64,000 nucleotides of DNA, taken from IMG/VR virus record IMGVR_UViG_3300002026_000069, positions 36,161-100,160 of that record; one strand, 5' to 3'. A model generated the notes under the pieces. It made no database searches. It saw only the letters and a list, made by a program, of their open reading frames with translations, and was not told the DNA's origin. Shown here piece by piece: positions 2,463-35,754 of the stretch. The stretch comes from a virus. Numbering within the stretch: position 1 is the first letter of the stretch; every line of letters begins with the position of its first letter. The position numbers and the translations under genes are program-made.

Positions 2463-2577
2463 GCTTGCGGCTATTAAAGCTGCCATTAAGAAGTATAAAC
2501 TCACCGCTTTACCTACCTATGGTGGAACAAATCTATCTATGGTTAAGAGCGACTTACCAAGGAATGCATATCCATGA
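2443..2577 (+). CDS. Small 44-aa peptide (not in ORF track)
   Basis: MLKHTTKLAAIKAAIKKYK...; fills the gap exactly, ATGA overlap with 2574; KLAAI also starts the 34386 protein. Confidence 0.5.
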   Translation: MLKHTTKLAAIKAAIKKYKLTALPTYGGTNLSMVKSDLPRNAYP

Positions 2578-2882
2578 ATCTAGAACTTATTGAAGATGCA
2601 ATTGAGAAGATTGCCGATGGTGCCGCTATGGCTAGGAAGGCTTTAGGATCGGCTAAATTAATTAAACCTGACACTCAACTCTCTAAGGGTCTTATTACAC
2701 AAGGAGAGCATAGGAGTAAAATTAAAACTATGCTTTCATCTGCAAGACTACAGAGAGATAGTAAAGCTGGTAAATTAGCTCCTTTGGGTTCTGGTCATAA
2801 AGCGTACCCAGGTGTATATGAAGCTCCAATTAAATATGAACACGATGTATCAAGACCTGGATTCTTAAAAGTAATTAAATGA
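2574..2882 (+). CDS. Tagged small basic protein (putative head cargo)
   Basis: Starts MNLELIEDAIEKIA, a tag shared with 5159 and 12666. Confidence 0.6.
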   Translation: MNLELIEDAIEKIADGAAMARKALGSAKLIKPDTQLSKGLITQGEHRSKIKTMLSSARLQRDSKAGKLAPLGSGHKAYPGVYEAPIKYEHDVSRPGFLKVIK

Positions 2883-4273
2883 AACCCATCCCAGGCTTCC
2901 CTGGCTATCACATCTCTGAGGATGGTAAAATTACCAATCCTAAAGGGAAGTTGTTAACCAGAAAGGATGCCTGGGAAGGTTATCCAAGAGCGCGTCTAAA
3001 GAACGAAGAAGGTAAGTTCGTTAATAGAAAGATTCATCGTCTTGTAGCCTTGGCACATCTTGGCGTTAACGACGGTGAGATTCGTCATAAAGATAACAAC
3101 AGAGCTAATGTAGCCGTTCATAATCTTGAGTGGGGAGATAGATTCTCAAACGCTCAAGATAGATTAGCTCGCGGGTCATATCATCTAAAGACAAAGCTTG
3201 TGGGTGGGAAAAGCCTACTTGTCTTAGGTGACGATAAGTACCTAGATCCTGAAGCTAAGAAAGTTTATAAGGTTACTGATCATCCTATTGGCGAAGAAGG
3301 TGTGATACCTGTAACATCATTAGAGAAGGTTGCATATTATCGTAAATATGCTCTCATTGATTTAGATACAGGAAAAATTCAAAGTGGATTAAATACATAT
3401 GTTAATTCTGAAGAGTTTAGAAAAAGGCATATAGAGAAGAAGGCTTTCCTACGTCGTTTTTTAAAACCAAATGTAGCTGAACATGCATTTGATGCCGTAT
3501 CCAGCGTTCAACTGCCTGGAGGTATGATTGGCAATGCAGTGACATCTGCAAAGCATGCTTATCAAGGCATTAAACCACATTTAGGTGGACCTGAAACATT
3601 ACTTACTAAGAAGAAGATACTTAAGCCATCACCTGTATTTAAGGGACTTAACATCCCGTCTGTTCAGCACGGAGTTTACACAAAGAGAGGACTAAAGGAA
3701 GTAACTGCTTCTAAGCTATATCCAGAAGCTCATGAGTTACTATTTAATAGATTTACTCCTATAGAGCTATTAAAGGGTATTAAGAATAATCGTAAGTTTG
3801 ACGGTAATTCCATTGATTATATTAAAGCCAACTTCCATCCAAGGAAGCTTGTAGATAAAGCTAACGCTGGTCATGAAGAGGCAAGAAAACTCGTAAAAGA
3901 GTTTGACTATGCAAGATCTGGCTTTGTTAAGAAAGCCGAATGGACTTCCAAGAAGAACGCTGATAGTCACGCATTAAAGCATGCAGATGAAATGGGATTA
4001 ACAAAAGAGCAATATATTGCTCTGGCTAAATCAGCATTGAATGATAAGAAGTCTTTAATTAGCATTAGGGGTGATATACATAAGTCTCGTCATGGTAAGA
4101 ATATTTTAGTTCATAAAGATGGAAAAGTAATTACTTATTACTCAAAAGTGGCTTACATTCGTAAAATTAAGAAGGGACTAGAGAGAGGTATTGATAACTT
4201 CCAAGATTGGGGTTATCATCAGGATGTCATTCAAACACATCAAGATATCAAAGAGAAGCGAAAGAAGAAATAG
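2879..4273 (+). CDS. NUMOD4/HNH endonuclease fused to K-x-A-delimited modules, including a toxin-like RNase module
   Basis: IPGFPGYHISEDG, HRLVALA, HKDNNRANVAVHNLEW; then EKVA, EKKA, KKA and KVA boundaries; HALKHADEMG..EQY..A module. Confidence 0.7.
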   Translation: MKPIPGFPGYHISEDGKITNPKGKLLTRKDAWEGYPRARLKNEEGKFVNRKIHRLVALAHLGVNDGEIRHKDNNRANVAVHNLEWGDRFSNAQDRLARGSYHLKTKLVGGKSLLVLGDDKYLDPEAKKVYKVTDHPIGEEGVIPVTSLEKVAYYRKYALIDLDTGKIQSGLNTYVNSEEFRKRHIEKKAFLRRFLKPNVAEHAFDAVSSVQLPGGMIGNAVTSAKHAYQGIKPHLGGPETLLTKKKILKPSPVFKGLNIPSVQHGVYTKRGLKEVTASKLYPEAHELLFNRFTPIELLKGIKNNRKFDGNSIDYIKANFHPRKLVDKANAGHEEARKLVKEFDYARSGFVKKAEWTSKKNADSHALKHADEMGLTKEQYIALAKSALNDKKSLISIRGDIHKSRHGKNILVHKDGKVITYYSKVAYIRKIKKGLERGIDNFQDWGYHQDVIQTHQDIKEKRKKK

Positions 4274-4274
4274 A

Positions 4275-4302
4275 TTTACTTCGCTTGTCTAACATCTACT
4301 AT
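4275..4302 (+). promoter_or_regulatory. TTTACT-N16-TACTAT promoter, predicted leaderless
   Basis: -10 ends 7 nt before ATG 4310; palindrome CATCTACTATATAGTAGATG covers the -10 and the start. Confidence 0.55.
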
Positions 4303-4309
4303 ATAGTAG

Positions 4310-5146
4310 ATGCTCCCCTATGACCGACTACTGCGTGGGCTTTTCGTAGTCCACAACAGACGGTTCGACCTCATCTCAAAACAGATGAGATCGTTTGGGA
4401 TTGCTCTGGCTGAAGATGTTCTGGAAAGTTACTACCACCAAGAGTTTATAACACTCCTGGCTGATGAGGACCAGATTTTTTTCAGCGGATCTGAGTTTCA
4501 TTCGGTTCATCCGAATGTCCTAAAGAAGATCGTGGTTCAGTTAGACATCGGGGCATACTTCAGCCCCCGTTGGGATATATCTCGCTTTGAGAATATCTAT
4601 CGTAATAGATTATTACAAAGACATATCGAAGCTTCGTTCATAGGTAAGTTAAACTCTGAGACAATCTCACAAGATATCTTAGATACATATCAGATCGAAG
4701 TTCCCATTCCTCTGATAGCAGAGTATAGAAGACTCTTCATCGATCTAAGCTGTGTAAAGAACCAGGACGACTGGTTTTTTTACATGAGAACTCTTCCAAG
4801 AGATGAACAACTATTCCGTAATGCTGTAATTACACAGCCTTCGGAATATGTCCGTTGGAAGCTAGGATGCAAGGTTTACATTGATCCTCTTGAAGCAACC
4901 AGACAAATCGCAACTGATATGTTCTGGAAGTACAAAGAGAGTCTTACGGATCAGACCATGCAAGGGCTTGAAACCACTCGGCGTGTGGCTGAGTTGGCGT
5001 TTAAGGCTATTGATCGCGTCCATAAGATTGATAAAGACAAGAAGCCTCTTAATAAGGCCAAGAACTTCAACCAGTTACTTCTCTCCTTTGGTGGGGCAGA
5101 TGAGACTACGGTTGACGATCTACGCATTCCTACTAATAATGGGTAA
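4310..5146 (+). CDS. Hypothetical protein, possible terminase small subunit
   Basis: Helical 278-aa protein shortly upstream of the large terminase; positional evidence only. Confidence 0.35.
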   Translation: MLPYDRLLRGLFVVHNRRFDLISKQMRSFGIALAEDVLESYYHQEFITLLADEDQIFFSGSEFHSVHPNVLKKIVVQLDIGAYFSPRWDISRFENIYRNRLLQRHIEASFIGKLNSETISQDILDTYQIEVPIPLIAEYRRLFIDLSCVKNQDDWFFYMRTLPRDEQLFRNAVITQPSEYVRWKLGCKVYIDPLEATRQIATDMFWKYKESLTDQTMQGLETTRRVAELAFKAIDRVHKIDKDKKPLNKAKNFNQLLLSFGGADETTVDDLRIPTNNG

Positions 5147-5158
5147 CAGGAACCAATC

Positions 5159-5626
5159 ATGTCATTAGAACTTATTGAGCAAGCAATCGAAAAAGTAGCA
5201 TTCTTACCCGCTGGGTCAGGTGCGGTACTCAAGGGAGCCTTCTCAAAGGGTTCTACCTGGAAGGGCATCGGAACTAGAGCCGCAATCGGCGCTGGTGTCG
5301 GAGGCGTAGGAAACGTACTTCTTGGCGATAAAGATCAATCAGTCATGGAACGCGCTACAAAGGGCGCTGTTGGTGGTGGATTGGTTGGTGGACTCTATGG
5401 AGCGGGTCGTGCTGCTCATGGAGCCATTAGGGGTGATGCCGTAGGTAAGGTTCGTAGTGCAGTGAGACAAAATAGATTCGTGAATAATGATCAAATTCAC
5501 GGAACTATGGGAAATAGAAACGCCGATCAATTAGCTAGATATCAATCTGACTTAAAGGCTCATAAAGCTACGATTAGAGCCAAGATGAATCCAAGTGCAA
5601 CTCCAGCACCAGCCGCCGCTCCTTAA
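5159..5626 (+). CDS. Tagged glycine-zipper protein (putative head cargo)
   Basis: MSLELIEQAIEKVA|FLP..., AAIGAGVGGVG...KGAVGGGLVGGLYG. Confidence 0.65.
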   Translation: MSLELIEQAIEKVAFLPAGSGAVLKGAFSKGSTWKGIGTRAAIGAGVGGVGNVLLGDKDQSVMERATKGAVGGGLVGGLYGAGRAAHGAIRGDAVGKVRSAVRQNRFVNNDQIHGTMGNRNADQLARYQSDLKAHKATIRAKMNPSATPAPAAAP

Positions 5627-5741
5627 GATAAAGCATGCTATCGCTAAGATAGCTGCTTTTAAGCTTAAAGCACCGGAAAAGAAACCGGAACAGACTCCAA
5701 CACCTGTTCCGGCTATTGCTCCAACGAATGTCCCACCTTGA
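5595..5741 (+). CDS. Small Pro-rich peptide with AIAKIA motif (GTG start, not in ORF track)
   Basis: MQLQHQPPLLKIKHAIAKIA|AFKLKAPEKKPEQTPTPVP...; resembles the AIEKIA tag. Confidence 0.4.
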   Translation: MQLQHQPPLLKIKHAIAKIAAFKLKAPEKKPEQTPTPVPAIAPTNVPP

Positions 5742-5765
5742 ATGGTGGGATTTTTCGTTTAGTAT
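5738..5765 (+). promoter_or_regulatory. TTGAAT-N16-TAGTAT promoter, predicted leaderless for terminase
   Basis: -10 ends 6 nt before GTG 5772. Confidence 0.6.
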
Positions 5766-5771
5766 GTATTC

Positions 5772-7307
5772 GTGAAGCCATCTACCCTTGCTCAAAAGAT
5801 GTTGTCCCTTAAGGGTGGACCTTTAGACCTGAGAGGCAGACCATATCTCAAAGATGTATATGATTCAGATGCACAGAGAGTTCTCTTAAAGTTTGGCCGT
5901 CAGTCTGAAAAGTCTACTACTTTAAGTGCTAAAATAACATTAAATACAGCGTGCATCCCATACTTTAATACGCTGTTCGTTTCGCCTTCAGCTTCTCAGA
6001 CGAAAGACTTTAGTAATGATCGTCTAAATCAGTTCATGAAGAATAGTGATTATATTGTAGATAATCTATTCGACCAAACATGTACTGATAGAGTAGATCA
6101 AAAGTCTCTTTTAAATGGTTCGAATGTATATCTGAGATATGCATTCCATAACGCTGACAGAACCCGTGGTATATCTGCTGATCAGGTAGTTCTTGATGAG
6201 CTTCAAGATATTCGAACTGATAATATTTCGGTTATTGAAGAATCTGCGTCTCACTCTGAGAGAGGTTTAAAGGGTCATCCATATAAGTCTTTCATCTTCG
6301 CAGGCACTCCTAAGACTACGAATAACTCAATGGAGTTCTTTTGGCGTAGATCCTCAATGCGTGAGTGGGGTATTAAATGCGAAGGTTGCGGACATTGGGC
6401 ATTAGAACTCTCTACAAAGAACATTGGTAAAGAGTATCTTATATGCGAGAAATGCGGACATAGACTATATCCTCAAACTGGACGCTGGATTATCACGAAT
6501 CCAGGTGCAGCTATTGAAGGATATCATATTTGTCAGTTAGCCGTTCCTTGGCTTGATTGGCAAAAAGACATTCTATTCAAATTAAATACCTATCCTCAGA
6601 ATCGTTTCTATAACGAGGTTCTCGGGCTATCATACGATAGCGGTTCTAAGCCGTTAACCATGGCTCAACTTCGTCAATGCTGTAATCCTGATCGTAAGGA
6701 TTGGTGGAAGCATGATGAAGGATATATACCAAGACCTTTGTTTGCTGGGATAGATTGGGCTTTAACAGCAGAGAAGTCCTTTACTATCCTAACCATAGGC
6801 GCTTGGCTTCCATTCCCTGAGAAGTTTGTTATTCTCTATCAGAAGAAGTATGAGGCTAATCTAGACCTACTCCAGCAAATTGAAGATATTAAGCTCGTTT
6901 GCGACCAATACGGCGTAGATCTTATTGGAGCGGATTGGGGTGCTGGTGTTCATAGTAACTTAAAGCTTATTGAACACTTCGGTTCCGATAGGGTTGCTCA
7001 GTATTATAACTCTGGATCTCAGAAGAACCGCATTCAGTGGAATGATAAGCGTCAGATGTTTACGATTAGCAGAACAACGGTAATGACAGATTTGTTTAAC
7101 TATATACAAAAGTCTCGTATTGAATGGCCAGCATATGAAGTCTGTCAGGGATTCCTAACTGACTTCCTGAATGAAGATATCGAATACAATAAAGATGGTG
7201 TATTGTATTACGATCACAATCCAGATAGTCCTGATGATGCTATTCACTCGACTATGTATTGTATGTTAGCTGGAGAACTATTCTATACGAATAGGGGTAA
7301 TAGCTAA
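5772..7307 (+). CDS. terL: Terminase large subunit (GpA-like)
   Basis: GRQSEKST Walker A-like, VVLDE Walker B, GTP motif, two CxxC, AGIDW nuclease Asp, PDDAIHS. Confidence 0.9.
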   Translation: MKPSTLAQKMLSLKGGPLDLRGRPYLKDVYDSDAQRVLLKFGRQSEKSTTLSAKITLNTACIPYFNTLFVSPSASQTKDFSNDRLNQFMKNSDYIVDNLFDQTCTDRVDQKSLLNGSNVYLRYAFHNADRTRGISADQVVLDELQDIRTDNISVIEESASHSERGLKGHPYKSFIFAGTPKTTNNSMEFFWRRSSMREWGIKCEGCGHWALELSTKNIGKEYLICEKCGHRLYPQTGRWIITNPGAAIEGYHICQLAVPWLDWQKDILFKLNTYPQNRFYNEVLGLSYDSGSKPLTMAQLRQCCNPDRKDWWKHDEGYIPRPLFAGIDWALTAEKSFTILTIGAWLPFPEKFVILYQKKYEANLDLLQQIEDIKLVCDQYGVDLIGADWGAGVHSNLKLIEHFGSDRVAQYYNSGSQKNRIQWNDKRQMFTISRTTVMTDLFNYIQKSRIEWPAYEVCQGFLTDFLNEDIEYNKDGVLYYDHNPDSPDDAIHSTMYCMLAGELFYTNRGNS

Positions 7308-7331
7308 AGAAAGGCGCTCATGCGCCATGGT

Positions 7332-7556
7332 TCAATCAACCATTCCTTCATTGGACTGAAGGAATTCAATCTCAGCCTGAGATACCTCGACATGTTGATT
7401 GTCGATCATCTCTTCAGAGATACTAGGATCTCCTTCTTCCTGCTTCTTGAGCATATCAAGCAACTTCTTCGATTCCATCACATAGGCATTCCACTTTGGT
7501 GTGGTTGCATCTGTGAGATCAACCCCGATGATATCGGGGCATTGGATTTCAGACAT
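7332..7556 (-). CDS. Antisense cassette hypothetical protein
   Basis: AAGGAG Shine-Dalgarno (SD), GGTATAAT -10 at 7577-7584, downstream hairpin. Confidence 0.6.
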   Translation of the reverse strand: MSEIQCPDIIGVDLTDATTPKWNAYVMESKKLLDMLKKQEEGDPSISEEMIDNQHVEVSQAEIEFLQSNEGMVD

Positions 7557-7603
7557 GGTTATGTCTCCTTATTAGTATTATACCTCATAGCTAAAAAAGA
7601 CAC

Positions 7604-7915
7604 TCATGGGAGTGTCCTAGCCTTCAATATGGCTTCGAATGTCTTTTGGTATTCAGACTTATTCTTGTCTTCTTCCTCTTCCCACTTCATATCTTTGAAT
7701 GCTTCTTTTATCAAATAATACTGGCATATAGCATTCGCTATACCCAAAGCGATACTAGCAACAGCAAATCCGGTCAAGAACCTATCTGCCGCTACATTGG
7801 ATTCATAAGCATTATGAATGCTATTGAATTCATTTAAAGTTGATATAGACTTGTTTATTTGAATTCCACGTAGCGTTGTATCAAGACGCATTGGAATCAT
7901 TGGTTGATATGTCAT
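7604..7915 (-). CDS. Antisense cassette single-TM protein (likely start 7915)
   Basis: FLTGFAVASIALGIANAIC; GGTATAAC -10 ends 6 nt before ATG 7915. Confidence 0.55.
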   Translation of the reverse strand: MTYQPMIPMRLDTTLRGIQINKSISTLNEFNSIHNAYESNVAADRFLTGFAVASIALGIANAICQYYLIKEAFKDMKWEEEEDKNKSEYQKTFEAILKARTLP

Positions 7916-8006
7916 ATGGATGTTATACCTAAAAAACATCAACCGTGCCTCAGTATTGCTACTGAGGTCACTTTAAACCTTTCGGTGGTTGATGTTCTCC
8001 TTGGCC

Positions 8007-8222
8007 TTACTTCTTCAGTTCGGCCAACTCCTGCTTCAGCTCTTCCAGGTAGCTCTTGCGCTTGATCTTGTTGATCTCGCGTTCGATCTCCCGGATCTCC
8101 TTCTGTTCCTCGTCTTCCTGCTTCTTCTTCTCGATCTGCTCTTTCACGACCTCGGAACCCGCCACCAACATGGCGGCGAGGCTGGTCATGCAGAGGTTCT
8201 GGAACTCGCGCTCCTTGGACAT
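8007..8222 (-). CDS. Antisense cassette coiled-coil peptide with GC-rich codons
   Basis: AAGGAGG SD, GGTATAA at 8245-8251, G/C-ending codons. Confidence 0.65.
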   Translation of the reverse strand: MSKEREFQNLCMTSLAAMLVAGSEVVKEQIEKKKQEDEEQKEIREIEREINKIKRKSYLEELKQELAELKK

Positions 8223-8264
8223 GTTAATGCCCTCCTTACTATTCTTATACCTAAAAACAACCCC

Positions 8265-8585
8265 CTATTTGGGGGTCATCTTCAGCCGACAGATTTGCCT
8301 CAATAACTCGTGACTTGAGTTTTCGATGACAAATCCTGGGAAGTTCTCCCAATCGGCTATATCGACCTCCATCAAGAACTTGATAGCCAGTTCTATGACT
8401 TCAATCTGATATTCCTGGTCTAGAGAAACCAAGAAATCCAGATGCGGAATCTGTCTCTCAACCATATTGAAATCATCCATCTCAAGATGACGCTTCTTGG
8501 CTTTCGCCAGCGTATTCTTAAGAAGAATAATCTTCGCACCCCGTAAACAGGCGATGGTGCCGATGATCGCCCCTAGCCCTAGCAT
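8265..8585 (-). CDS. Antisense cassette hypothetical protein with N-terminal hydrophobic segment
   Basis: AAGGAG SD, TGGTATAAT at about 8605-8613. Confidence 0.6.
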   Translation of the reverse strand: MLGLGAIIGTIACLRGAKIILLKNTLAKAKKRHLEMDDFNMVERQIPHLDFLVSLDQEYQIEVIELAIKFLMEVDIADWENFPGFVIENSSHELLRQICRLKMTPK

Positions 8586-8614
8586 AAATTTTCTCCTTAG
8601 TTATATTATACCAT

Positions 8615-9800
8615 ATGGAAAAGAAGTCATTCTTGGGCGGATTGTTTATGAAGTCCGGTCTTCATCAGGCTGCAAACTTTGGATTGAGAAGGCTTGGTTG
8701 GGGTAAACATTACTACACTGGATCTTCTGCCGCTGGAATAAGGGCTGCATTAACTGGAAAAGCTCACTTTCCAACTATAAGAAGAACTATTGGAGGTATA
8801 GCTCCAGATTTAACTGGATTAAGCGATTATGAGTTATCTAAAGGATTAACAGAAGCAGCTAAGCATCATATAAGTAAAGCATCAAAAGGTAAAGTTTCAC
8901 ACGAAGATATCATTCATATGTTGGGTGGAAAGACAAACCTTCCAAAAGACAGAATAGAGCTTTTAGATAAGCTTAAGCAGAATAAAGAATTAAAGATGCA
9001 TTTTAGTGGATTAGGTGTTAATCCACAATCCGTACTTGGGAAAAACCTAAAGGGCGGTATTGAGAAGTTCAAAAAGGAAGGTTTAGAACCTAAACGTGGT
9101 GCTATAGGAAGATTCTTTAGAAAATACGCTAAGGGACAAGATAAGCAAAAAGAGCTATTTACAGAACCAATTGCTCAATTATCTCTAGGTCAAATTCCAA
9201 CAACTTCAGTAATTAGTAGCGGAGCAACCCATGCGGCAAATAAAGGATTCACTTCTCCTATATTAGCTGCCAAGGGTCATGTAATGGAGTCCGGGATACG
9301 CTGATGTTGCTAGAGCGAAGAGATCTTATCTTGATAAAATGAAGGATAAAGGAATTTCAACAATAGGAACAATTGATCCTGCTGTGTCTGAATTTAAAGA
9401 TTTAGGAAGAGATTTCGGAAGAGCGGATTTAGCAGCTAGAAAGAAAGTAATTCTTGCTAATCAAGCTTTATTACATAAAGCAAAGGGATTAGGTCTATCT
9501 AAGCAGGAATTACTAAATAAGTATAAAGAAGCTAAATCAATAATACCAGAATCAGCTAATGATCCAATCAGACAAGGCATTCTCGGATACAGGAAAGGAT
9601 ATAGAGCAGTAAGGGAATTTATACCTAAGATTCAACCAATGAAAACTGAAATTACAAATATAATAAATAACGCTCAAAGAGATATATCTGTTAATGCTAG
9701 ATTGGCATATAGGAAAGCTAGAGGGGCTGTAGGGGATGCTTATAGTAATACTACGTCATTAGCTAAAAAAGGATACGATAGGTTGATGGGTAATAGTTAG
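8615..9800 (+). CDS. Basic Gly-rich protein split by a +1 frame break (8615-9304 and 9339-9800)
   Basis: Removing one G of TCCGGGATAC (about 9290-9299) gives continuous ...ESGYADVARAKRSYLDKMKDK. Confidence 0.5.
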
Positions 9801-9880
9801 AACACTCCATGAAGGAGTGCCGACAAACTCGTTAAGCATCCTTTCGGGTAGCTGTTGAGCTTGTCTGATTTGTTCGCCGG

Positions 9881-10030
9881 TCAGGGCTTCTTGGCGGCAG
9901 CGTGGGCCGCCAGCACCGCCGCCTGTTCGGCGTTGGGCTTGGTGACGAAGTACGTGACGAGGCTTCCCGTCACCGCGCCAGCCACGAAGCCAGCGGAGAA
10001 AGCCTGAACCGGGGTGAGGCTGCTGAGCAT
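9881..10030 (-). CDS. 49-aa single-TM peptide, about 67% GC
   Basis: AAGGAGG SD before ATG 10030; TGGTATAAT at 10091-10099; hand count 101/150 G+C. Confidence 0.6.
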   Translation of the reverse strand: MLSSLTPVQAFSAGFVAGAVTGSLVTYFVTKPNAEQAAVLAAHAAAKKP

Positions 10031-10180
10031 GCTGATATCCTCCTTCAAGGACGAGAACCCATGATCTTCTGGATCACTTTCTCTAAATATATTATACCAT
10101 TTGGAGGGTCCTTTTTCCCTTAAAGTGTCCCTGTGCAGGGACATATTGATTTTAGGCTTCTTATCTATACTATGTTTCAT

Positions 10181-11005
10181 ATGTTCGATAGCGACTCTTG
10201 CAGGACTTGGGCTAAGGAAGCGTCTGATGCTTATCTAGCTGATAGCACCCCTCTAGGGGACACTATCGCTGGAATAGCTAAAAAGAACTCCTTAAACCCC
10301 AATCAGATACAAAGAGTCGTGGAATTGACTAATTCCATCACTCATGCTAGACTATTCCAGAAGGAAAAGGATAAGACCTTTACCTTCCCACTGGCTAAAT
10401 TAGACGATATTCTAGCTAAAACTAAGGAAACTACCGTGAAAGTAGCTGAAGCATACGTTTCAATGCCCGATATTCAACGTCCAGTGGAATCCACTAAGAT
10501 AGCTGAGTTATTTGATAGCCCTGAAGTCTTGGATATTAATAAGATAGCCACTCTAAAGAAGGCTCAAATCTACATTGAGAAGATGGAAAAGGCTGCTGAA
10601 TGCCTAAATGACGCTCTAATTCTAGCCGATCTTAATGCCGTCCAGTATCTCAAGGATGCCAAAACGGTCATTAAACAGATGCTTTTAGACTCATATCATA
10701 TGGAAGACCTCTTTGCGGCTATGATTGGGGCTATGCCAGATAAGAAAATGGAGCTTTTAAGCTTATTTAGCTCTATCTGCAAGGAGCTTTCAGAAGAAGG
10801 GGTTAAGATTGCTTCCCTTTCAGTAGATCCAAACTATATATCTTCTCTATTAAAGACTCAGAATATCAGAGTTGTCAATGGTCAGCACCCTCTTTACATG
10901 AATGTAAAGGGATATTTCGACCAAGTTGATGAAGTTGCAGCCAAAAAGAATAGCATCGAATGGCTTGGAAGCAAGATCAACGAGCTAAAACATGCAATTA
11001 AATGA
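10181..11005 (+). CDS. Head-module (scaffold/core-like) protein; likely start 10181
   Basis: TTGATT-N16-TACTAT at 10146-10173 ends 7 nt before the ATG; many K-x-A motifs. Confidence 0.55.
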   Translation: MFDSDSCRTWAKEASDAYLADSTPLGDTIAGIAKKNSLNPNQIQRVVELTNSITHARLFQKEKDKTFTFPLAKLDDILAKTKETTVKVAEAYVSMPDIQRPVESTKIAELFDSPEVLDINKIATLKKAQIYIEKMEKAAECLNDALILADLNAVQYLKDAKTVIKQMLLDSYHMEDLFAAMIGAMPDKKMELLSLFSSICKELSEEGVKIASLSVDPNYISSLLKTQNIRVVNGQHPLYMNVKGYFDQVDEVAAKKNSIEWLGSKINELKHAIK

Positions 11006-11297
11006 GCATTCTATTAACGGCATGCTGAAATTAGCAGGTATATACTCCAGTGTTATGACTGGCGGATATAATCTAGCTAAGAAAGGGATTTCTTCTTTAA
11101 AGCCTTTAGTCTCCAAAGAAGTCTCTCCAGGTGTCAGACGCCTCTCATTAAAGAGAATGGCTATGACAGGAGCAGGTCTTTATGGTGCCAAGAAGCTAAC
11201 AGATCAAGTCTTAGAAAATCAACGTAACCTTTCAAGAGACTATATGGATGATATTCATCCGTATCGTCAATCAGACACACTAAGGATGGCAAGATGA
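10992..11297 (+). CDS. Small basic protein, MLKLA|G..., putative head cargo
   Basis: KLA after a short leader; GAGLYGA segment. Confidence 0.5.
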   Translation: MQLNEHSINGMLKLAGIYSSVMTGGYNLAKKGISSLKPLVSKEVSPGVRRLSLKRMAMTGAGLYGAKKLTDQVLENQRNLSRDYMDDIHPYRQSDTLRMAR

Positions 11298-11937
11298 ACA
11301 CTCAATTATACAATGAGTTACTAGAAGCTAAGGCAAATGGTACTTTGGGTACTGTTCTCCTTGAGAAATTCGCCTCTCTAAACATTAAGTCTGAAGATGA
11401 AGTTCGGCATTTATTTGATTGCACGAATGAAAAGCTTGCATGGAAGGGTGGTGGCGGTGGTCCAGCACCAACACCTAGTAAATCAACCACTTTAGGCAAG
11501 GTAATTCTAGGCTTATCATTAGCTGGAATTGCATCAGTTCCTATTGGAGCCATGATTTCTAAGGCAAACCAGAAGAAGTCCACATTTGATAAGATCAAAG
11601 CTTCTAATCCTGCATTAGCTCAGGATGCCAAGACTAAGGATCATTACGACATGCTATGGCATGAGCTTCTAATCCTGCATTAGCTCAGGATGCCAAGACT
11701 AAGGATCATTACGACATGCTATGGCATGTTGCTCCTAATCTTGCTGGAAATCATGTTATTGCCGCTTCTGTTCTTGAACAGCTTAAGGCTTATGACATGA
11801 TTGATCACCAGATGATCGCTAAGCTTGTTGAAGCCGATAAGAACATGGCAGAGAGCAAGTCGAAGAGCGGTATGATTCAGAATGCCAGTAACCTCTCAAC
11901 AATCGGAAAGAACATTTCCGATATGGCGAACAAGTAA
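11294..11937 (+). CDS. Single TM-containing protein broken by a 65-bp tandem duplication
   Basis: Removing one repeat copy fuses 11294-11683 and 11716-11937. Confidence 0.65.
11599..11728. repeat. Perfect 65-bp tandem duplication
   Basis: 11599-11663 = 11664-11728. Confidence 0.95.
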
Positions 11938-12480
11938 ATGGACGGCAAAAAGATTGTAGAGCAATATCTTAAGATTGCTCCATATCTTGGTGCTGCTGGA
12001 ACCGGCGCTGCCATTGGTGGCGCTGTTTCCGATGATCGTAAGAAGGGCGCTATGAAAGGCGCTCTTATTGGACTTGGTTCGTTGGTTGGTGGAAGATTGG
12101 CTGCAAAAGGTGGATCTTCTATTGCTAATAGGTTCCTAGGTAAGGATAAATTGAAATTTGCAAACGAGTTCCGTGAACTAGAAAAGAAAATTGGAACGGA
12201 TGCAGCTATTCATAAAGTAAATATAGACGCTTTAGTTGCAAACGGAAAAGTAGATGCTGCTAATACATACATATCTAAACTTCAAACTGAAGGTTTAGGC
12301 GCAGCATATGCATCTCTTGGCGAGAATCATAAATATATTCCAGAAATTCCAAAGGATATGTTTGCAAAGCTTCTTTCTAAAGAAAGCGGAATTATCGGTG
12401 GCGCAGCAACTATTGGTTCTTCTGCTGGTTTAGCTGGAACCGCATACGCATTAAGAAATGGTAATAGTTCTAAAAAATAA
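11938..12480 (+). CDS. Glycine-zipper protein (putative head cargo)
   Basis: YLKIA|PYLGAAGTGAAIGG...KGALIGLGSLVGG; second zipper at the C-terminus. Confidence 0.6.
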   Translation: MDGKKIVEQYLKIAPYLGAAGTGAAIGGAVSDDRKKGAMKGALIGLGSLVGGRLAAKGGSSIANRFLGKDKLKFANEFRELEKKIGTDAAIHKVNIDALVANGKVDAANTYISKLQTEGLGAAYASLGENHKYIPEIPKDMFAKLLSKESGIIGGAATIGSSAGLAGTAYALRNGNSSKK

Positions 12481-12685
12481 GAACATCGTAGGTTACTACG
12501 ATGGAATGATTCATGCGGACAATGAGCATGACATTCGCTTAATAAATACATGTCTTAATGTAAATCTTGACAAAGCAGACGAATATCATAAGCTAAAAGA
12601 TAGATTACACGCCCCTTACTTCTGTAAGCGTGGAACAACTAACCAATCCTTTAGGATAAAGCAAAATGTCATTAAATCTCATTGA
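12458..12685 (+). CDS. Hypothetical protein
   Basis: Overlaps both neighbouring genes in the operon. Confidence 0.45.
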   Translation: MVIVLKNKNIVGYYDGMIHADNEHDIRLINTCLNVNLDKADEYHKLKDRLHAPYFCKRGTTNQSFRIKQNVIKSH

Positions 12686-13037
12686 AGATGCAATTGAGAA
12701 AATAGCTTTATTATCAGCCGCAAACACAGCAGCACGATTTGGATTAATCGGTGGCGCTGTTGGCGCTTTTAGAAAGAAAGATAAAGACGAGTCTCGTCTT
12801 CATTCCATTCTTAGAAGTGCTGGAACTGGCGCTGCCGTTGGAGCAGGCGGAAACATAGCTGCAAGAGGCTTAGCTAAGGCTGTTAAATTTAGCCCTGGCA
12901 AAGCTGAAGTAGCAAAGCTCGTTGGAGATAAGAAGACTTATAACAAAGAAATGCTTAAAGCATTGGCTGTACTTGGTGGTGGAACCGCTGGTAGTATTGG
13001 TGCTTATCACCTTGCCAAGAGAAAAGAAAATAAGTAA
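12666..13037 (+). CDS. Tagged glycine-zipper protein (putative head cargo)
   Basis: MSLNLIEDAIEKIA|LL...; GLIGGAVG, GTGAAVGAGG, GGGTAGSIGA. Confidence 0.65.
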   Translation: MSLNLIEDAIEKIALLSAANTAARFGLIGGAVGAFRKKDKDESRLHSILRSAGTGAAVGAGGNIAARGLAKAVKFSPGKAEVAKLVGDKKTYNKEMLKALAVLGGGTAGSIGAYHLAKRKENK

Positions 13038-14881
13038 TGTTTAAAGCCATCGACATCGGACCATTGCTGGATGACGGCGAATTAGCCGTTAAACTCATGC
13101 CCGTTGGCGATGAGGAAAAGACAGCTTCCGTACTTGGAAAGCATATTCCTGATGAGATCGCTCTCTTCGCTAAAGCGGCTAAGTCTTCTGAAGACTGTGT
13201 TTGGCTTCATGTTATCGCCATGACGGCTGGAGACTTTTATGGTCCCAATCGTAATGGCGATTTCTTCTATGAAGCTGATCTTCTTGGAATGCAAGATCAA
13301 GAAGAAGCTAATAAGAATATTGGCGAATATACTGGAAAGCCACTTCAACGCTATAAGACATTCTTACAGGCTTCATTCTATCATCATCATAAGAATAAGC
13401 CAGATCTAGGGCATCCTCGCTTTGGTCGTGTTGTAGTTGTAGCTTACAACCACATCATGCATCGTGTTGAGCTTGTTCTACAAGTATTCAGAATTACTAA
13501 GAAGATTGGTGATATCACCTATCTTGGTGATCCTGATACTTGCGGAAAGGCTATGAGAGGCGAACAAATCGCTTTCTCCATGGGATGCAAGGTTCCTGGT
13601 GACTATTGCTCAATTACTGGTGTATGGAATAAGACGGTTGCTAACTATGGATTGCACTTAAAGACCATGATGGGTCGTATAATGCCTGATGGAAGGCGTG
13701 TATACGCAATTAATAGAAAACCAAGATTCTTCGATATCTCAAAGGTTCTTATTCCCGCAGACCCACTTGGGCTATCCATTACTAAAGTAGCTTCAGTAAT
13801 CATTGGATCTGCTCAGAAAGCTCTGGATTACGGCATGGAAGATAACGAGAAGCTTTCAATCTTAAAGAAGTCTGAAATAAAGAAAATAATTCCAGATGGC
13901 AAACTGATTGGTGAATTAGCCGATCAGCATGAGATGCCTGGATTAGAATATACTGATGATGATCTTCCTAGTAATGTATTAGATAGTCTAGGCAACCTAT
14001 CTTTAGGCAAGGCTCTTACTAACCTATTAGCTTCAGGCATGCTTGCTTCACCAAGAGAAGTTGGCACTATCATTACTATTCGTATTCAACGTTCTCCTAA
14101 CTGGATGAAAGAGACTCCTGATATTGATTGGAATGGTGGAGTGGATTCTGATGTTCAGAAAGAACTCGCTAAGCATGCTGCAAGTCGTTCTTTCTTTGGG
14201 CATCTTCCATTAAATAGAATGGAGAAGCTGGCTAATGTTGAAGAGAAGGCTGAAAAGTCTCTTCCAGATAAGATTTACGAGAAGTTTAACAAGCAACTTC
14301 CAGTTGGTGTGACGATGGGTGCATTGATTGCATCTATATATACGTTGTATCGTGCCAACATTCGTAGCGGAACATTAGAAAGTTTCTTTAAACTAATCGA
14401 TAAGAATCCATATATTCTTCCTGCTGTCATTGGTGGTGGAACTTTGGCAAGTTCAACCATATCAGCAGCTATGGAGAAGAAAGCTGATATGCACAAGCAT
14501 ATCAATAAACTTCTTTTAGCTACTGCTATTCCATATGTTGGATCTGCCTATCTGACTCAAAGAGAGAAGGAAGGCAAGCAACTTGGTGCTGTCTCAAGAT
14601 TCATTAAAGACAATCCAGGTGCTTTGGCTATCGGCAGCAACATAGCTGCTTTTGGTGGAGCAAAAGCCCTAAAGGACAAACTGACTTCAAAAGTTGCTCA
14701 CTTGAAAAAGTGCGCGGGCTTAGATAAGATGGATGTGATAGATAACTTTGTCGTGCAGCCAATGACATCACTTTCGGGAAGCATTCCGCATTCGATGGTT
14801 GGTGGTTCGATAGATAGTTATGTCCTAAACAAACTTCTCAATCGTAAGAGAAAAACCCTTCCTTCCTCAACGGAGAAATAA
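13037..14881 (+). CDS. Putative prohead maturation protease with K-x-A-delimited C-terminal hydrophobic domains
   Basis: NRNGDFF, YHHH, FSMGC..D.CS, FFDIS.V..PAD resemble HK97/herpes-fold phage serine proteases; upstream of scaffold and capsid genes. Confidence 0.65.
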   Translation: MFKAIDIGPLLDDGELAVKLMPVGDEEKTASVLGKHIPDEIALFAKAAKSSEDCVWLHVIAMTAGDFYGPNRNGDFFYEADLLGMQDQEEANKNIGEYTGKPLQRYKTFLQASFYHHHKNKPDLGHPRFGRVVVVAYNHIMHRVELVLQVFRITKKIGDITYLGDPDTCGKAMRGEQIAFSMGCKVPGDYCSITGVWNKTVANYGLHLKTMMGRIMPDGRRVYAINRKPRFFDISKVLIPADPLGLSITKVASVIIGSAQKALDYGMEDNEKLSILKKSEIKKIIPDGKLIGELADQHEMPGLEYTDDDLPSNVLDSLGNLSLGKALTNLLASGMLASPREVGTIITIRIQRSPNWMKETPDIDWNGGVDSDVQKELAKHAASRSFFGHLPLNRMEKLANVEEKAEKSLPDKIYEKFNKQLPVGVTMGALIASIYTLYRANIRSGTLESFFKLIDKNPYILPAVIGGGTLASSTISAAMEKKADMHKHINKLLLATAIPYVGSAYLTQREKEGKQLGAVSRFIKDNPGALAIGSNIAAFGGAKALKDKLTSKVAHLKKCAGLDKMDVIDNFVVQPMTSLSGSIPHSMVGGSIDSYVLNKLLNRKRKTLPSSTEK

Positions 14882-14882
14882 A

Positions 14883-15446
14883 ATGCAGATCGAAGATTTA
14901 CTCGCACAGCTTGCTGCTGGTAGCGAAAAAACTGGCACTGAGGCTGAAAAGACCGCTGCTGCCGCATCAACCACCCTTCCTGAAGGTATTTCTGCTGAAG
15001 TCTTAGCTATGGCTAAGGCTCTCTCAGAAGACAAGGAAGCTCTCGCTGCTCTTCAGAGCATGAGCGAGGACTCAGAGAAGACTGCTGAAGCTGAGAAGCT
15101 TGCAGAAGAGCTTGAGTTCCAAGGCCGTCTGTTTGCTCGCGGTTTAATCGCTGAGCAGACCAAGATTGCCTATCTTTCAGACCAGATCGACGAAGATGCC
15201 GTTATTAAGACTGCCGAAGCACTTCACATGACTCTCGATGAGATTATGGGCGAGAAGATCGCTGATGCTCATGAGCAGGCTTACACCGCTGCCCAGAATA
15301 ATTCTGGCGCTGGTCATGTCGAAGTTGCTCAGAACGCTCATGAGCGTCCTGTTGCAAAGGCAGAAGAACTCAAGGGCTTAGCCGCAGTTGCGAATGCTCT
15401 TAAGAAGGTCAAAGTCAACAAAACCGATCAGCCCGTTAACGGCTAA
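14883..15446 (+). CDS. Scaffold-like acidic protein
   Basis: Ala/Glu-rich; EKTG, EKTA x2, EKLA, KIA, KTA, EKIA. Confidence 0.6.
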   Translation: MQIEDLLAQLAAGSEKTGTEAEKTAAAASTTLPEGISAEVLAMAKALSEDKEALAALQSMSEDSEKTAEAEKLAEELEFQGRLFARGLIAEQTKIAYLSDQIDEDAVIKTAEALHMTLDEIMGEKIADAHEQAYTAAQNNSGAGHVEVAQNAHERPVAKAEELKGLAAVANALKKVKVNKTDQPVNG

Positions 15447-15479: not shown

Positions 15480-15896
15480 ATGGATCTCGCAGAATACTAC
15501 GAAGAAGTCACCAAGACCGCTGGCCTGAAAGAGGAAGCCGACGTTAGCGAAGAGAAGGTAGCTGCCATCGTTGCAGTTTCCGAACAATTCGATATCGACG
15601 GAATCGCTTTCGAAAACGAAGACGAGAAGATTGCTGCCGCAGTCGCTATCGTTGAAGGATTCGAGTCAGTTGTTGAGGAATCAGAGAAGGACGCAGGCGT
15701 TGGCGAAATGTACAACAAGGTCAAGGGTCATCTCGCTGCTGGATATGCAAAGGTGAAGGAAAAGGCTGGAAAGGCTTACGCCGCCACCAAGGAACACCTA
15801 AAGACGCATAAGGGCAAGTATTACGCTGGCGCTGGCGGTGCTGCCGCTGGTGGAGTTGCTGGATACGTCGCTGGCCGCAGAAGCAAGAGCAAGTAA
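15480..15896 (+). CDS. Acidic propeptide plus basic glycine-zipper C-terminal peptide
   Basis: KTA, EKVA, EKIA, EKDA|GVGEM...; ends GAGGAAAGGVAGYVAGRRSKSK. Confidence 0.6.
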   Translation: MDLAEYYEEVTKTAGLKEEADVSEEKVAAIVAVSEQFDIDGIAFENEDEKIAAAVAIVEGFESVVEESEKDAGVGEMYNKVKGHLAAGYAKVKEKAGKAYAATKEHLKTHKGKYYAGAGGAAAGGVAGYVAGRRSKSK

Positions 15897-34167: not shown

Positions 34168-34389
34168 GTGAGTGAACTCTCTGAGCTTACTCATTCGATT
34201 AAAGAATTAGTCCATAGAGTTGATGGACTAATTTGCCATTACACATCAATTGATGCTGATTATAGTCGCGTCAGAAACACTCTAGTAGATCACGAAGAAA
34301 GAATTCGTCGTCTAGAGCGAGAACATAATTTTGAACCAGCTAAAAAAATAGGCGAAGATAGCGCCTTATTTCAAGTAATAAAGTCATGA
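34168..34389 (+). CDS. Small coiled-coil protein
   Basis: DHEERIRRLE. Confidence 0.45.
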   Translation: MSELSELTHSIKELVHRVDGLICHYTSIDADYSRVRNTLVDHEERIRRLEREHNFEPAKKIGEDSALFQVIKS

Positions 34390-34688
34390 ATAAGTTAGCA
34401 GCCATAAGGGATGCAGTAGAAGAGATCAATAAAGAAGCTCTCTTTGGATCTTTAGTCCCTATGGCTGCTAGATTTGCCCCTACTCTATTTAGGGCTGCGA
34501 AATCAACTGTAAACCTGGGAAGAGGCGCTTTAGGCGCAACTAGAGCAGGATTAGGCGCTGCTAAGCAAACAGCAGGGCAAGGTTTAGCGAAGTTACCTGG
34601 AACTGGAATCAAAGGAACCGTCGCTAGTATGGCGATTCCTATGCTTCCAAATGCCAGCGGTGCCGCTAGTGGCCCAACTAAGTTTTAG
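34386..34688 (+). CDS. Tagged amphipathic Gly/Ala-rich protein (putative head cargo)
   Basis: MNKLAAIRDAVEEINKEA|LFGSLV... Confidence 0.55.
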   Translation: MNKLAAIRDAVEEINKEALFGSLVPMAARFAPTLFRAAKSTVNLGRGALGATRAGLGAAKQTAGQGLAKLPGTGIKGTVASMAIPMLPNASGAASGPTKF

Positions 34689-35479: not shown

Positions 35480-35754
35480 CTTCCTTTGGGTTTGGGGTTA
35501 GAGTGAATGATTCCCGGCATAGGTGTTATACCAATTTTTGCCTCAAGAGCATCAATCTGACCAAAAGGAACTCTGTCGCACTTCTTAGTGTCTAAATCTC
35601 CAGTTAAAACTCTATTTCCATCTAGAATAGTTTTAGACGAAGGTTTATAATAAATAGTTCCGCATTTATACCAAATCGAATCCCGTAAGAGATCTCTTGC
35701 TTCTTTAGTTTTTCCTAATCTTTCAAGAATATCTATCTTACGGGATACAGTCAT
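35467..35754 (-). CDS. Hypothetical protein
   Basis: Coupled to thyA. Confidence 0.45.
   Translation of the reverse strand: MTVSRKIDILERLGKTKEARDLLRDSIWYKCGTIYYKPSSKTILDGNRVLTGDLDTKKCDRVPFGQIDALEAKIGITPMPGIIHSNPKPKGRCCR

What the first reader, a model, noticed from the sequence alone, without database searches (positions are those of the whole stretch)
2574..13037. Shared 14-aa N-terminal tag on unrelated proteins (capsid-targeting-sequence candidate)
Seen: MNLELIEDAIEKIA (2574), MSLELIEQAIEKVA (5159) and MSLNLIEDAIEKIA (12666). Looser versions: IKHAIAKIA (5595), IVEQYLKIA (11938), INGMLKLA (10992), AIRDAVEEINKEA (34386). Similarity stops at K-x-A. The DNA ATTGAAGATGCAATTGAGAA is identical at 2589-2608 and 12681-12700, suggesting the tag has been shuffled onto new cargos. 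Known: T4 IPI/IPII/IPIII use a short cleaved capsid-targeting sequence. Inference: a portable packaging tag, possibly useful for loading proteins into capsids.
Basis: partly seen in the sequence, partly recalled or inferred. Interest (0 to 1): 0.85.

Follow-up and report, generated by a model that had tools for sequence, protein, structure and literature searches.

The report
Shared clip-off leader on phage head proteins
Three small, strongly basic proteins of an uncultured large phage begin with the same 14-residue acidic helix, which ends in the motif that the phage's head-maturation protease most likely cuts, so it is probably a "load into the head, then clip off" tag like phage T4's, but with a different, undescribed cutting code.

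Summary
The core observation holds. Three ORFs (2574, 5159, 12666) start with M-[NS]-L-x-L-I-E-x-A-I-E-K-[IV]-A, and similarity ends there. A tag profile finds only these three in the 100-kb record (27-29 bits; next best 6.9).

The tag ends in E-K-phi-A. That tetrapeptide occurs 21 times in head-module proteins against 1.2 expected, and never in tail or early proteins. It also sits near the capsid protein's N-terminus.

ORF 13037 is a head-maturation protease with the herpes-assemblin/T4 gp21 fold. Across its roughly 2,240 homologue clusters, K-x-A is nearly invariant in the two flexible linkers flanking the fold. Orthologues keep the tag while linker and cargo drift.

Related uncultured phages carry their own shared leaders ending in EK-phi-A on up to seven unrelated proteins per locus, for example MNKYLEKIA.

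Best reading (about 0.55): a T4-CTS-like propeptide cut after Ala14 that loads small basic, partly glycine-zipper, proteins into the prohead. Neither cutting nor packaging has been observed.

Verdict: a new variant of a known kind. This scan has reported similar leaders before on other DNA (T4-like jumbo phages), all ending in x-x-E.

The parts
2574..2615 (+). Tag copy A (MNLELIEDAIEKIA), the first 14 codons of ORF 2574-2882
   Evidence: 26.9 bits against the tag HMM.
2574..2882 (+). Tagged protein A, 102 aa. The part after the tag is 88 aa, pI 10.2, net charge +10, with no glycine zipper. It has an internal K-L-A site at residue 69.
   Evidence: It has no homologue apart from the 96%-identical P0008. 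A distant A-like gene in G001 shares the tag, a DGA motif and a PGFLK motif.
5159..5200 (+). Tag copy B (MSLELIEQAIEKVA)
   Evidence: 27.1 bits.
5159..5626 (+). Tagged protein B, 155 aa. The part after the tag has pI 11.0, net charge +12 and a glycine-zipper helical hairpin. The gene lies just upstream of the large terminase.
   Evidence: Four orthologues (P0004-P0007) keep M1 S2 L3 I6 I10 E11 K12 while residues 15-34 vary. The AF2 model is poor (pLDDT 51) and shows a helix at residues 4-14.
12666..12707 (+). Tag copy C (MSLNLIEDAIEKIA)
   Evidence: 29.4 bits.
12666..13037 (+). Tagged protein C, 123 aa. The part after the tag has pI 10.5, net charge +13 and glycine-zipper segments. Its stop codon overlaps the protease start (TAATG).
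   Evidence: Orthologue P0002 starts MSLDKIQSSIEKIA. The G001 homologue g171137 starts MSLEKIADAIKQA.
13037..14881 (+). Head-maturation (prohead) serine protease, 614 aa. The folded domain spans roughly residues 40-250, followed by a long C-terminal extension with glycine-zipper segments. K28-T-A30 lies at nt 13118-13126 and K250-V-A252 at nt 13784-13792. Both are probable self-cleavage sites.
   Evidence: There are 2,240 homologue clusters, and 27 of 35 homologues match phrog_18299, head maturation protease. The AF2 model has pLDDT 84. The best fold matches are VZV protease (Z 9.6) and T4 gp21 (Z 9.4), well above the unrelated rows. H118 and S181 are invariant. K28, A30, K250 and A252 are nearly invariant and lie in low-pLDDT linkers.
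14883..15446 (+). Acidic, Ala/Glu-rich scaffold-like protein with six K-phi-A sites. It is a candidate docking partner for the tag (inference).
   Evidence: It is 69% identical to the G001 counterpart.
17533..18684 (+). Major capsid protein. ...SDGLEKLA|EVGG, with K24-L-A26 at nt 17602-17610, is the probable propeptide cut site.
   Evidence: It matches phrog_2522. The site is conserved in position in the capsid proteins of Arash gp226 (GLVKEA|GAAM), Vibrio phage D69 (GLTKEA|GAAM), L063 and G001.
10992..11297 (+). Small glycine-rich protein with a generic 15-aa leader ending K-L-A. It is not a copy of the tag.
   Evidence: It does not appear among the listed tag-HMM hits.
11938..12480 (+). Glycine-zipper protein with a generic 14-aa leader (MDGKKIVEQYLKIA). 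It is not a copy of the tag.
15480..15896 (+). Head-module protein with K-T-A at residue 14 and E-K-V-A at residue 28. This is a generic leader.
5772..7307 (+). Large terminase subunit (context only)
   Evidence: phrog_675, E 7e-73. The closest cultured relative is Salmonella phage Arash at 31% identity.

Best explanation
The 14 residues are an N-terminal propeptide with two parts. The last four or five residues (I-E-K-phi-A) are a cutting site for the phage's own head-maturation protease (ORF 13037), which would cleave after Ala14. The preceding residues (M-S-L-x-x-I-E-x-A) complete a short, acidic, amphipathic helix with heptad-like spacing of its hydrophobic residues.

This helix most likely docks the protein onto the scaffold or core of the assembling prohead. 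Small basic cargo proteins would in this way be enclosed by the shell. Two of the three cargos have glycine-zipper, membrane-type hairpins. After shell completion the protease would remove the tag, leaving the basic mature proteins with the DNA, probably to be ejected on infection.

Shown here: the tag itself; its restriction to three N-termini; its conservation in orthologues; the head-specific enrichment of E-K-phi-A; the protease fold; and the family-wide conservation of K-x-A at the edges of the protease domain.

Inferred: that K-x-A is cut; that the tag is removed; that the tag targets proteins to the prohead; and that the cargos are in the virion.
For: 1. The tag is confined to three N-termini in the head module.

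2. EK[ILVFMT]A occurs 21 times in 5,534 aa of head-module proteins against 1.2 expected from shuffles (z = 17.8). The reversed motif occurs 2 times against 1.1 expected. There are 0 occurrences in about 13,400 aa of tail and early proteins.

3. The same motif sits near the N-termini of the capsid protein, the protease, scaffold-like proteins and the first head-module gene.

4. ORF 13037 is a prohead protease by family and by fold.

5. K-x-A is nearly invariant at residues 28-30 and 250-252 of that family. Both sites lie in disordered linkers flanking the fold. The second site parallels the herpesvirus release site, which is cut after Ala directly behind the protease domain (PMC4498786).

6. 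The enrichment recurs in distant cultured relatives. In Arash, K-phi-A is 14 against 6.8 expected in the head module. In Vibrio phage D69, K-x-A is 51 against 22.5 in the head module and 4 against 9.6 in the tail. It also recurs across 80 IMG/VR loci, at 5.95 per 1000 aa against 1.97 for the reversed motif, with motif ends peaking at ORF positions 7-10.

7. Orthologues keep M1 S2 L3 I6 I10 E11 K12 while the next 20 residues vary.

8. The three tags differ at 5-6 synonymous codons but only 2-3 non-synonymous ones, so selection acts on the peptide.

9. Tags look homogenised within a genome. L5 occurs in all three window tags and in none of the six orthologue tags. P0008 differs from the 2574 protein only inside the tag.

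10. Other lineages put their own common leader on several unrelated proteins, for example MNKYLEKIA on 4-7 ORFs per locus.

11. The cargos are small and basic (pI 10.2-11.0) and the tag is acidic and amphipathic. T4 internal proteins carry a comparable shared, cleaved capsid-targeting sequence (PMC3012670; PMC5694885).
Against: There is no virion proteomics and no N-terminal data for this phage or any close relative. The published Arash proteome gives only coverage values (capsid protein 86.6%), which neither show nor exclude the cut.

In the nearest full relative, G001, the corresponding leaders are much shorter (MSLEKIA..., MNNIEKIA...). In Vibrio phage D69 one leader is only five residues (MFKSA|S). 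A long docking helix is therefore not a general requirement.

Positions P5-P1 of the tag could be explained by protease recognition alone. Only L3 and I6 then argue for an extra function.

The same 14-residue pattern also heads two unrelated bacterial small proteins, so the sequence is a generic helix type.

The AF2 model of protein B is of low confidence.
Confidence: 0.55

Rival explanations
1. The tag is a cleaved leader with no address function. The protease removes it, but it serves only as a removable cap. It might keep basic or pore-forming glycine-zipper proteins soluble or harmless in the cytoplasm, or simply present the cut site. On this view the similarity of the three copies reflects common descent plus gene conversion, not a shared receptor.
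For: Leaders in relatives vary from 5 to 24 residues and often consist of little more than the site. The acidic tag contrasts with the very basic cargo. Two of the cargos may be old paralogues. There are traces of gene conversion.
Against: L3 and I6 lie outside any plausible P5-P1 recognition, yet they are invariant across orthologues whose cargos are only 31-66% identical. Within each genome the leaders of unrelated proteins stay alike while they differ between genomes, which is what a shared binding partner would produce. The 2574 cargo has no glycine zipper.
Confidence: 0.25
2. The tag is an uncleaved functional helix. It stays on the mature proteins and mediates oligomerisation or binding, for example to the portal, DNA, a chaperone or a membrane. 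The resemblance of its end to K-phi-A would then be incidental.
For: The helix is amphipathic with heptad-like spacing. A similar N-terminal helix heads unrelated bacterial small proteins that are not protease substrates.
Against: All nine tags end in K-phi-[AS] at the same position. The motif is enriched in head proteins about 17-fold and is directional. It is conserved at the borders of the protease domain. The region after the tag is variable and predicted to be non-helical, as expected for an accessible cut site.
Confidence: 0.1
3. The similarity is simple paralogy or chance. The three genes would be remnants of one duplicated gene whose 5' end has not yet diverged, with no function attached to the tag.
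For: The 5159 and 12666 cargos show a weak resemblance.
Against: The 2574 cargo is unrelated to the other two. The tags carry 5-6 synonymous differences, so they are not recent copies, yet the peptide is preserved. The tag is conserved in orthologues as strongly as the glycine-zipper core. The pair scores lie far outside the genome-wide background.
Confidence: 0.05

Closest known systems
Phage T4 capsid targeting sequence (CTS) of internal proteins IPI, IPII, IPIII and Alt, removed by prohead protease gp21 (Mullaney & Black 1996, as reviewed in PMC3012670 and PMC5694885)
   Same: Both are short N-terminal peptides (10-20 aa) shared by otherwise dissimilar small proteins. Both end in the cutting motif of a gp21/assemblin-fold head protease, and the same motif is found in the capsid and scaffold proteins. 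The cargos here are small and basic; that T4's internal proteins are also small and basic is from my own knowledge.
   Different: There is no sequence similarity to MKTYQEFIAE. The inferred cut is after Ala in K-x-A, not after Glu in L/I-x-E. The protease belongs to a separate, uncharacterised sequence family with N- and C-terminal extensions. Two of the cargos are glycine-zipper proteins. Targeting and cleavage are experimentally shown for T4 and only inferred here.
Giant phages phiKZ / SPN3US: propeptides cut at (S/A/G)-x-E, and the identical 15-residue N-termini of the diverged paralogues gp53 and gp54 (PMC5694885)
   Same: Both show conserved N-termini on diverged head proteins that end in the protease motif. 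Both phages have many processed internal or ejection proteins and a virion-associated multisubunit-type RNA polymerase.
   Different: The cleavage code is different. SPN3US gp53 and gp54 are clear paralogues, whereas the 2574 cargo here is unrelated to the other two.
Herpesvirus assemblin with its release (R) and maturational (M) sites, e.g. YLQA-T and VQA-S in pseudorabies virus (PMC4498786)
   Same: The fold is the same (Z 9.6 to VZV protease). In both, P1 is Ala followed by a small residue, and a self-cleavage site lies directly behind the protease domain and releases it from a C-terminal extension.
   Different: P3 is Lys here. Herpesviruses are not known to use shared N-terminal cargo tags.
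P1 DarB N-terminal packaging signal (PMC9024508)
   Same: It is an N-terminal signal that is sufficient to load a protein into a phage head.
   Different: It is 30 residues long, is carried by a single 250-kDa protein and is not described as a shared, protease-delimited tag.

Membership tests
T4-type capsid targeting sequence (functional class) | A short N-terminal peptide shared by proteins that are otherwise dissimilar | tested here: met
   Three ORFs share 11-12 of 14 residues, and BLASTP similarity stops at residue 14. hhalign on the cargos alone finds the 2574 cargo unrelated to the other two, and 5159 against 12666 only weakly similar.
T4-type capsid targeting sequence (functional class) | The peptide ends in the cleavage motif of the phage's prohead protease, and the same motif occurs in capsid and scaffold proteins | tested here: inconclusive
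   The motif is inferred statistically, not biochemically. E-K-phi-A occurs 21 times against 1.2 expected, in head proteins only. It is present in the capsid protein and the protease and conserved at the borders of the protease domain. No cleavage data exist.
T4-type capsid targeting sequence (functional class) | The genome encodes a gp21/assemblin-fold prohead protease | tested here: met
   27 of 35 homologues match phrog_18299. Fold matches are Z 9.4 to T4 gp21 (rmsd 3.2 over 132 residues) and Z 9.6 to VZV protease (rmsd 2.9 over 115 residues). H118 and S181 are invariant.
T4-type capsid targeting sequence (functional class) | The tag is necessary and sufficient to load a protein into the prohead, and is absent from the mature virion protein | not testable with these tools
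   This needs virion mass spectrometry and reporter fusions, and no cultured host is known.
T4 CTS (sequence family) | Sequence similarity to MKTYQEFIAE-type leaders with a cut after Glu | tested here: not met
   The tag is MSLxLIExAIEKIA. The enriched motif ends in Ala, and orthologue tags end in A or S.
Sec/Tat/lipoprotein signal peptides | A basic n-region followed by a hydrophobic core | tested here: not met
   The tag has a net charge of -2.5 to -3.5. It is amphipathic, with no hydrophobic core.
Radical-SAM/SPASM recognition leader (as proposed elsewhere in this scan for an RB43 tag) | A partner radical-SAM enzyme encoded in the genome | tested here: not met
   PF04055 has no match in the 100-kb record, while all 14 control genomes match. 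The record is only about 55% complete, so absence is not proven.

The most novel reading that the evidence does not exclude
A large, almost wholly uncultured clade of big phages uses a head-maturation protease with an undescribed specificity: K-x-A followed by a small residue, with P1 Ala as in herpesvirus assemblin. The clade comprises at least 2,240 protease clusters at 50% identity; its cultured outliers are Salmonella phage Arash and Vibrio phage D69. Each lineage has its own short portable leader, such as MSLxLIExAIEKIA here and MNKYLEKIA elsewhere, that loads a changing set of small basic and glycine-zipper proteins into the head for ejection. The tags are exchanged between genes by recombination.
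Probability: 0.45. Interest if true: 0.7.

Novelty: new variant of a known kind. Interest (0 to 1): 0.6.

Why it matters
If the reading is right, the "address tag plus clip site" way of loading proteins into phage heads is not a T4 speciality. It would have a counterpart in a separate, very large and nearly unstudied protease family that uses a different cutting code.

That would give three things:
- A sequence rule (N-terminal leader ending in E-K-phi-A) for predicting virion cargo and ejected proteins in thousands of metagenomic phages.
- A candidate short tag for loading foreign proteins into capsids.
- A link between herpesvirus-type cutting after alanine and phage head maturation.

The protease specificity can be tested directly on cultured relatives (Arash, D69).

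Tried and rejected
- No close relative in the phage collections. Megablast of 20 kb against INPHARED found nothing. TerL-based and strict tag-pattern scans of IMG/VR found nothing useful.
- A profile scan of JGI metagenome contigs with the 5159 family found no relative, although JGI-sourced orthologues exist in the protein collection.
- The relaxed tag DNA pattern hit 12 JGI soil contigs and one Rhizomicrobium MAG. All encode one unrelated 62-70 aa bacterial protein family (MSLAEIQEAIEKLAPEER... and MSLDEIERAIEKLSPQDQ...). I rejected these as convergent helices.
The Logan contigs carrying P0002 (83.9 kb) and P0007 (24 kb) could therefore not be fetched, and the within-genome co-variation suggested by P0002 and P0005 (both 'IQSSIEKI') could not be verified.
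- Foldseek against the PDB gave no match at E <= 0.001. The fold assignment rests on the VIA-align wide search.
- The AF2 model of the 5159 family was too poor to use (pLDDT 51).
- I considered the Prp/L27-type N-terminal extension of Firmicute phages such as 80alpha, and double-glycine bacteriocin leaders, both from memory. I set them aside because the tag has neither an F-A nor a G-G junction and the phage encodes its own protease. Neither was formally tested.
- A text search for NKYLEKIA or YLEKIA found no paper.
- The Arash paper gives coverage values only, with no N-termini.

Full report
SETTING. The window is the last 64 kb of a single 100,160-bp virus record. CheckV rates that record only 55% complete. 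It is a phage. A large terminase lies at 5772-7307 (phrog_675, E 7e-73) and a major capsid protein at 17533-18684. The head and tail genes are on the plus strand and the early genes on the minus strand. No near relative exists in INPHARED. The closest cultured phage is the orphan Salmonella phage Arash, with terminase 31%, protease 35% and capsid protein 34% identical.

THE OBSERVATION. Three ORFs start with MNLELIEDAIEKIA (2574), MSLELIEQAIEKVA (5159) and MSLNLIEDAIEKIA (12666). A six-frame scan of the whole record finds exactly these three. BLASTP similarity ends at residue 14, or at residue 22 for 5159 against 12666. The DNA upstream of the ATGs is unrelated.

An HMM built from nine tags (three from the window, six from orthologues) scores the three at 27-29 bits. 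Nothing else in 125,000 translated residues scores above 6.9 bits. In an all-against-all comparison of the N-termini of 156 ORFs the tag pairs score 48-56, while the 99.9th percentile is 29.

One of them, at 5595, lies in a short overlapping frame that is probably not a gene.

SELECTION ACTS ON THE PEPTIDE. The three tags differ at 5-6 synonymous and only 2-3 non-synonymous codons out of 14. They are therefore neither very recent copies nor an RNA or DNA element.

Orthologues from metagenomes keep the tag.
- The 12666 family has P0002, which starts MSLDKIQSSIEKIA.
- The 5159 family has MSLKAIEQAIEKVA, MSLKEIQSSIEKIS, MSLNSIEASIEKLA and MSLSKIEDSIEKLA.

In that family M1, S2, L3, I6, I10, E11 and K12 are invariant. 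Residues 15-34 vary, and conservation resumes in the glycine-zipper core.

A 96%-identical orthologue of the 2574 protein (P0008) differs at four positions, all within tag residues 2-8, and at none of the remaining 88 residues (Fisher p = 2.4e-4). Leu5 is common to the three tags of this genome and absent from all six orthologue tags. Together these points indicate exchange or homogenisation of tags within a genome.

THE CARGOS. After the tag the three proteins are small (88-141 aa) and strongly basic (pI 10.2-11.0, net charge +10 to +13). The tag itself is acidic (-2.5 to -3.5) and amphipathic. The 5159 and 12666 proteins carry glycine-zipper hairpins and show a weak profile resemblance (E 0.0028, probability 11%). 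The 2574 cargo is unrelated to both. "Unrelated cargo" is therefore true for one of the three and doubtful for the other pair.

THE END OF THE TAG IS A HEAD-SPECIFIC MOTIF. E-K-[ILVFMT]-A occurs 21 times in the 23 head-module proteins (5,534 aa) against 1.2 expected from shuffles (z = 17.8). The reversed motif occurs twice against 1.1 expected. Tail proteins (5,132 aa) and early proteins (8,314 aa) have none.

K-phi-A sits close to the N-terminus of several head proteins:
- the capsid protein (...GLEKLA|EVGG, residue 26);
- the protease (EEKTA|S, residue 30);
- scaffold-like proteins;
- the first head-module gene;
- several small glycine-rich proteins whose leaders are exactly 14-15 residues long.

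THE PROTEASE. ORF 13037-14881 directly follows the third tagged gene; the stop and start codons overlap. Its first 300 residues have 2,240 homologue clusters in the 50%-identity library. Of 35 homologues examined, 27 match phrog_18299, "head maturation protease".

An AlphaFold model (pLDDT 84) matches varicella-zoster virus protease (Z 9.6, rmsd 2.9, 115 residues aligned) and T4 gp21 (Z 9.4, rmsd 3.2, 132 residues aligned). Both stand clearly above the unrelated rows, which score about 6 or less. Two further herpesvirus proteases score Z 5.8-6.6. Foldseek alone was inconclusive.

In the family alignment H118 and S181 are invariant. K28, A30, K250 and A252 are nearly invariant. Both K-x-A motifs lie in low-confidence linkers on either side of the folded domain. 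The second motif, (L/M)-x-K-V-A|S, occupies the place of the herpesvirus release site, which is cut after alanine just behind the protease domain (PMC4498786). I infer that this protease family cuts after K-x-A. That is an inference from conservation and enrichment, not an observation.

THE PATTERN IS GENERAL IN THIS PROTEASE FAMILY.
- In Arash, K-phi-A is 14 against 6.8 expected in the head module, and the capsid protein has GLVKEA|GAAM at the equivalent place.
- In Vibrio phage D69, K-x-A is 51 against 22.5 expected in the head module and 4 against 9.6 in the tail. A scaffold-like protein has ten K-x-A sites, nearly all followed by S or A.
- Across 80 IMG/VR loci around homologous proteases, K-phi-A runs at 5.95 per 1000 aa on the protease strand, against 1.97 for the reversed motif. 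The opposite strand gives 0.83 against 0.84.
- In those loci motif ends peak at ORF positions 7-10. Sixty of the 80 loci have two or more ORFs with the motif in the first 20 residues, and 21 loci have five or more. The residue after the site is mostly A, S, E or G.

OTHER LINEAGES HAVE THEIR OWN SHARED LEADERS. This bears most directly on the finding.
- M(x)NKYLEK[IV]A heads 4-7 ORFs per locus, with no detectable cargo similarity, in L042, L061/L062, L063, L065 and L068. Close variants occur in L046 and L087.
- L055 has a 24-residue leader shared by two proteins.
- L020 and L036 have further leader types.

The nearest full relative is G001, a 184-kb IMG/VR record with capsid protein 71.5%, terminase 68% and protease 58% identical. 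It has these leaders:
- MSLEKIADAI... on the 12666 homologue and on a neighbouring gene;
- MNNIEKIA... on two small glycine-rich proteins;
- MSLIEQAIVKLA|DGA... on an A-like gene placed just upstream of the protease.

In G001 the A-like gene thus holds the place that 12666 holds in the window, while the 12666 homologue sits beside the first head-module gene. Leader-bearing ORFs in the 80 loci are on average somewhat shorter, more often basic (47% against 31% with pI above 9) and richer in glycine.

INTERPRETATION. The closest known system is the T4 capsid targeting sequence. That is a 10-20-residue N-terminal peptide shared by the diverse internal proteins. It binds them to the scaffold core and is removed by gp21 (PMC3012670; PMC5694885). 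The latter paper also notes identical 15-residue N-termini on two diverged SPN3US head proteins.

The present tag has the same anatomy but no sequence similarity, and it belongs to a different protease family with a different inferred code. I therefore file it as working like a CTS, not as a member of the T4 sequence family.

The part of the tag that protease recognition does not explain (M-S-L-x-x-I) is conserved in orthologues and uniform within the genome. That is the main argument for an address function. The main argument against is that relatives manage with leaders of 5-9 residues.

Cleavage, packaging and ejection are all unobserved. I put the CTS-like reading at about 0.55. A cleaved leader without an address role gets 0.25, an uncleaved helix 0.10 and plain paralogy 0.05.

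EARLIER NOTES OF THIS SCAN. Other first-stage notes on this genome proposed the K-x-A code. My tests agree with them. Follow-ups on other genomes describe CTS-like shared leaders in T4-like jumbo phages, all ending in x-x-E. This case differs in the protease family and the code. One earlier case (RB43) was re-read as a radical-SAM recognition tag. No radical-SAM gene is present in this record.

LIMITS.
- The record is incomplete.
- No experimental data exist for this lineage.

Noticed in passing
L061-L063, L065, L068, L042, L046, L087 (IMG/VR loci around homologous proteases): A nine-residue leader, M(x)NKYLEK[IV]A, heads up to seven otherwise dissimilar ORFs per 20-kb locus. 'NKYLEKIA' is the commonest 8-mer ending at an N-terminal K-phi-A site, with 25 occurrences. 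No paper in the searchable library contains the string.
   Followed up: partly
window 13037-14881 and alignment A3: The prohead protease family (2,240 clusters at 50% identity) has nearly invariant K-x-A motifs in the linkers before and after the folded domain. This suggests self-cleavage after Ala, as at the herpesvirus release site. No Pfam model matches this family.
   Followed up: partly
G000:C1:1268-2194 (outside the window): A 308-aa protein carries ten K-phi-A sites. It looks like a scaffold or a multiply cut polyprotein.
   Followed up: no
G000:C1:22019-27598 (outside the window): A single 1,859-aa ORF matches both Arash gp206 (RNA polymerase beta, 34% identity) and gp216 (28% identity; the record annotates it as subunit beta and the Arash paper as beta'). 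It is therefore a fused single-chain multisubunit-type RNA polymerase. The G001 counterpart is 2,028 aa and 64% identical.
   Followed up: no
window 1518-2462: A head-module protein has a glycine-zipper hairpin and a weak J-domain match (PF00226, E 7.9e-4, below the curated cutoff). It has K-F-A and K-L-A near residue 260.
   Followed up: no
window 2574-2882 and 12666-13037 compared with G001 (g158221, g171137): The A-like and C-family tagged genes occupy exchanged positions in the two related phages: beside the first head-module gene in one, just upstream of the protease in the other. This would fit recombination through the shared tag sequence.
   Followed up: partly
L002-L013 (JGI soil contigs) and L015:2449-2637 (Rhizomicrobium MAG): An unrelated bacterial family of 62-70 aa proteins starts with almost the same 14 residues (MSLAEIQEAIEKLAPEER... 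and MSLDEIERAIEKLSPQDQ...). It is probably a convergent amphipathic helix. From memory these proteins look like small antitoxin-type proteins.
   Followed up: partly
G000:C1:2885-3634 and 35419-36030 (outside the window): Two paralogous ORFs share a GIY-YIG-like N-terminus (YGCIYLLTSPSGKHYVGQT). They are probably homing endonucleases, one of them just upstream of the head module.
   Followed up: no
window 34386-34688: A 100-aa ORF at the end of the tail module starts MNKLA|AIRDAVEEINKEA|L. This is a five-residue K-x-A leader of the kind seen as MNKTA or MIKVA in other loci.
   Followed up: no
L055:9038-9305 and 9336-9970: Two adjacent ORFs (89 and 211 aa) share a 24-residue leader, MIKEAQFQKLVE(S/N)YDHSLLEKLA|G, and then diverge.
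   Followed up: no
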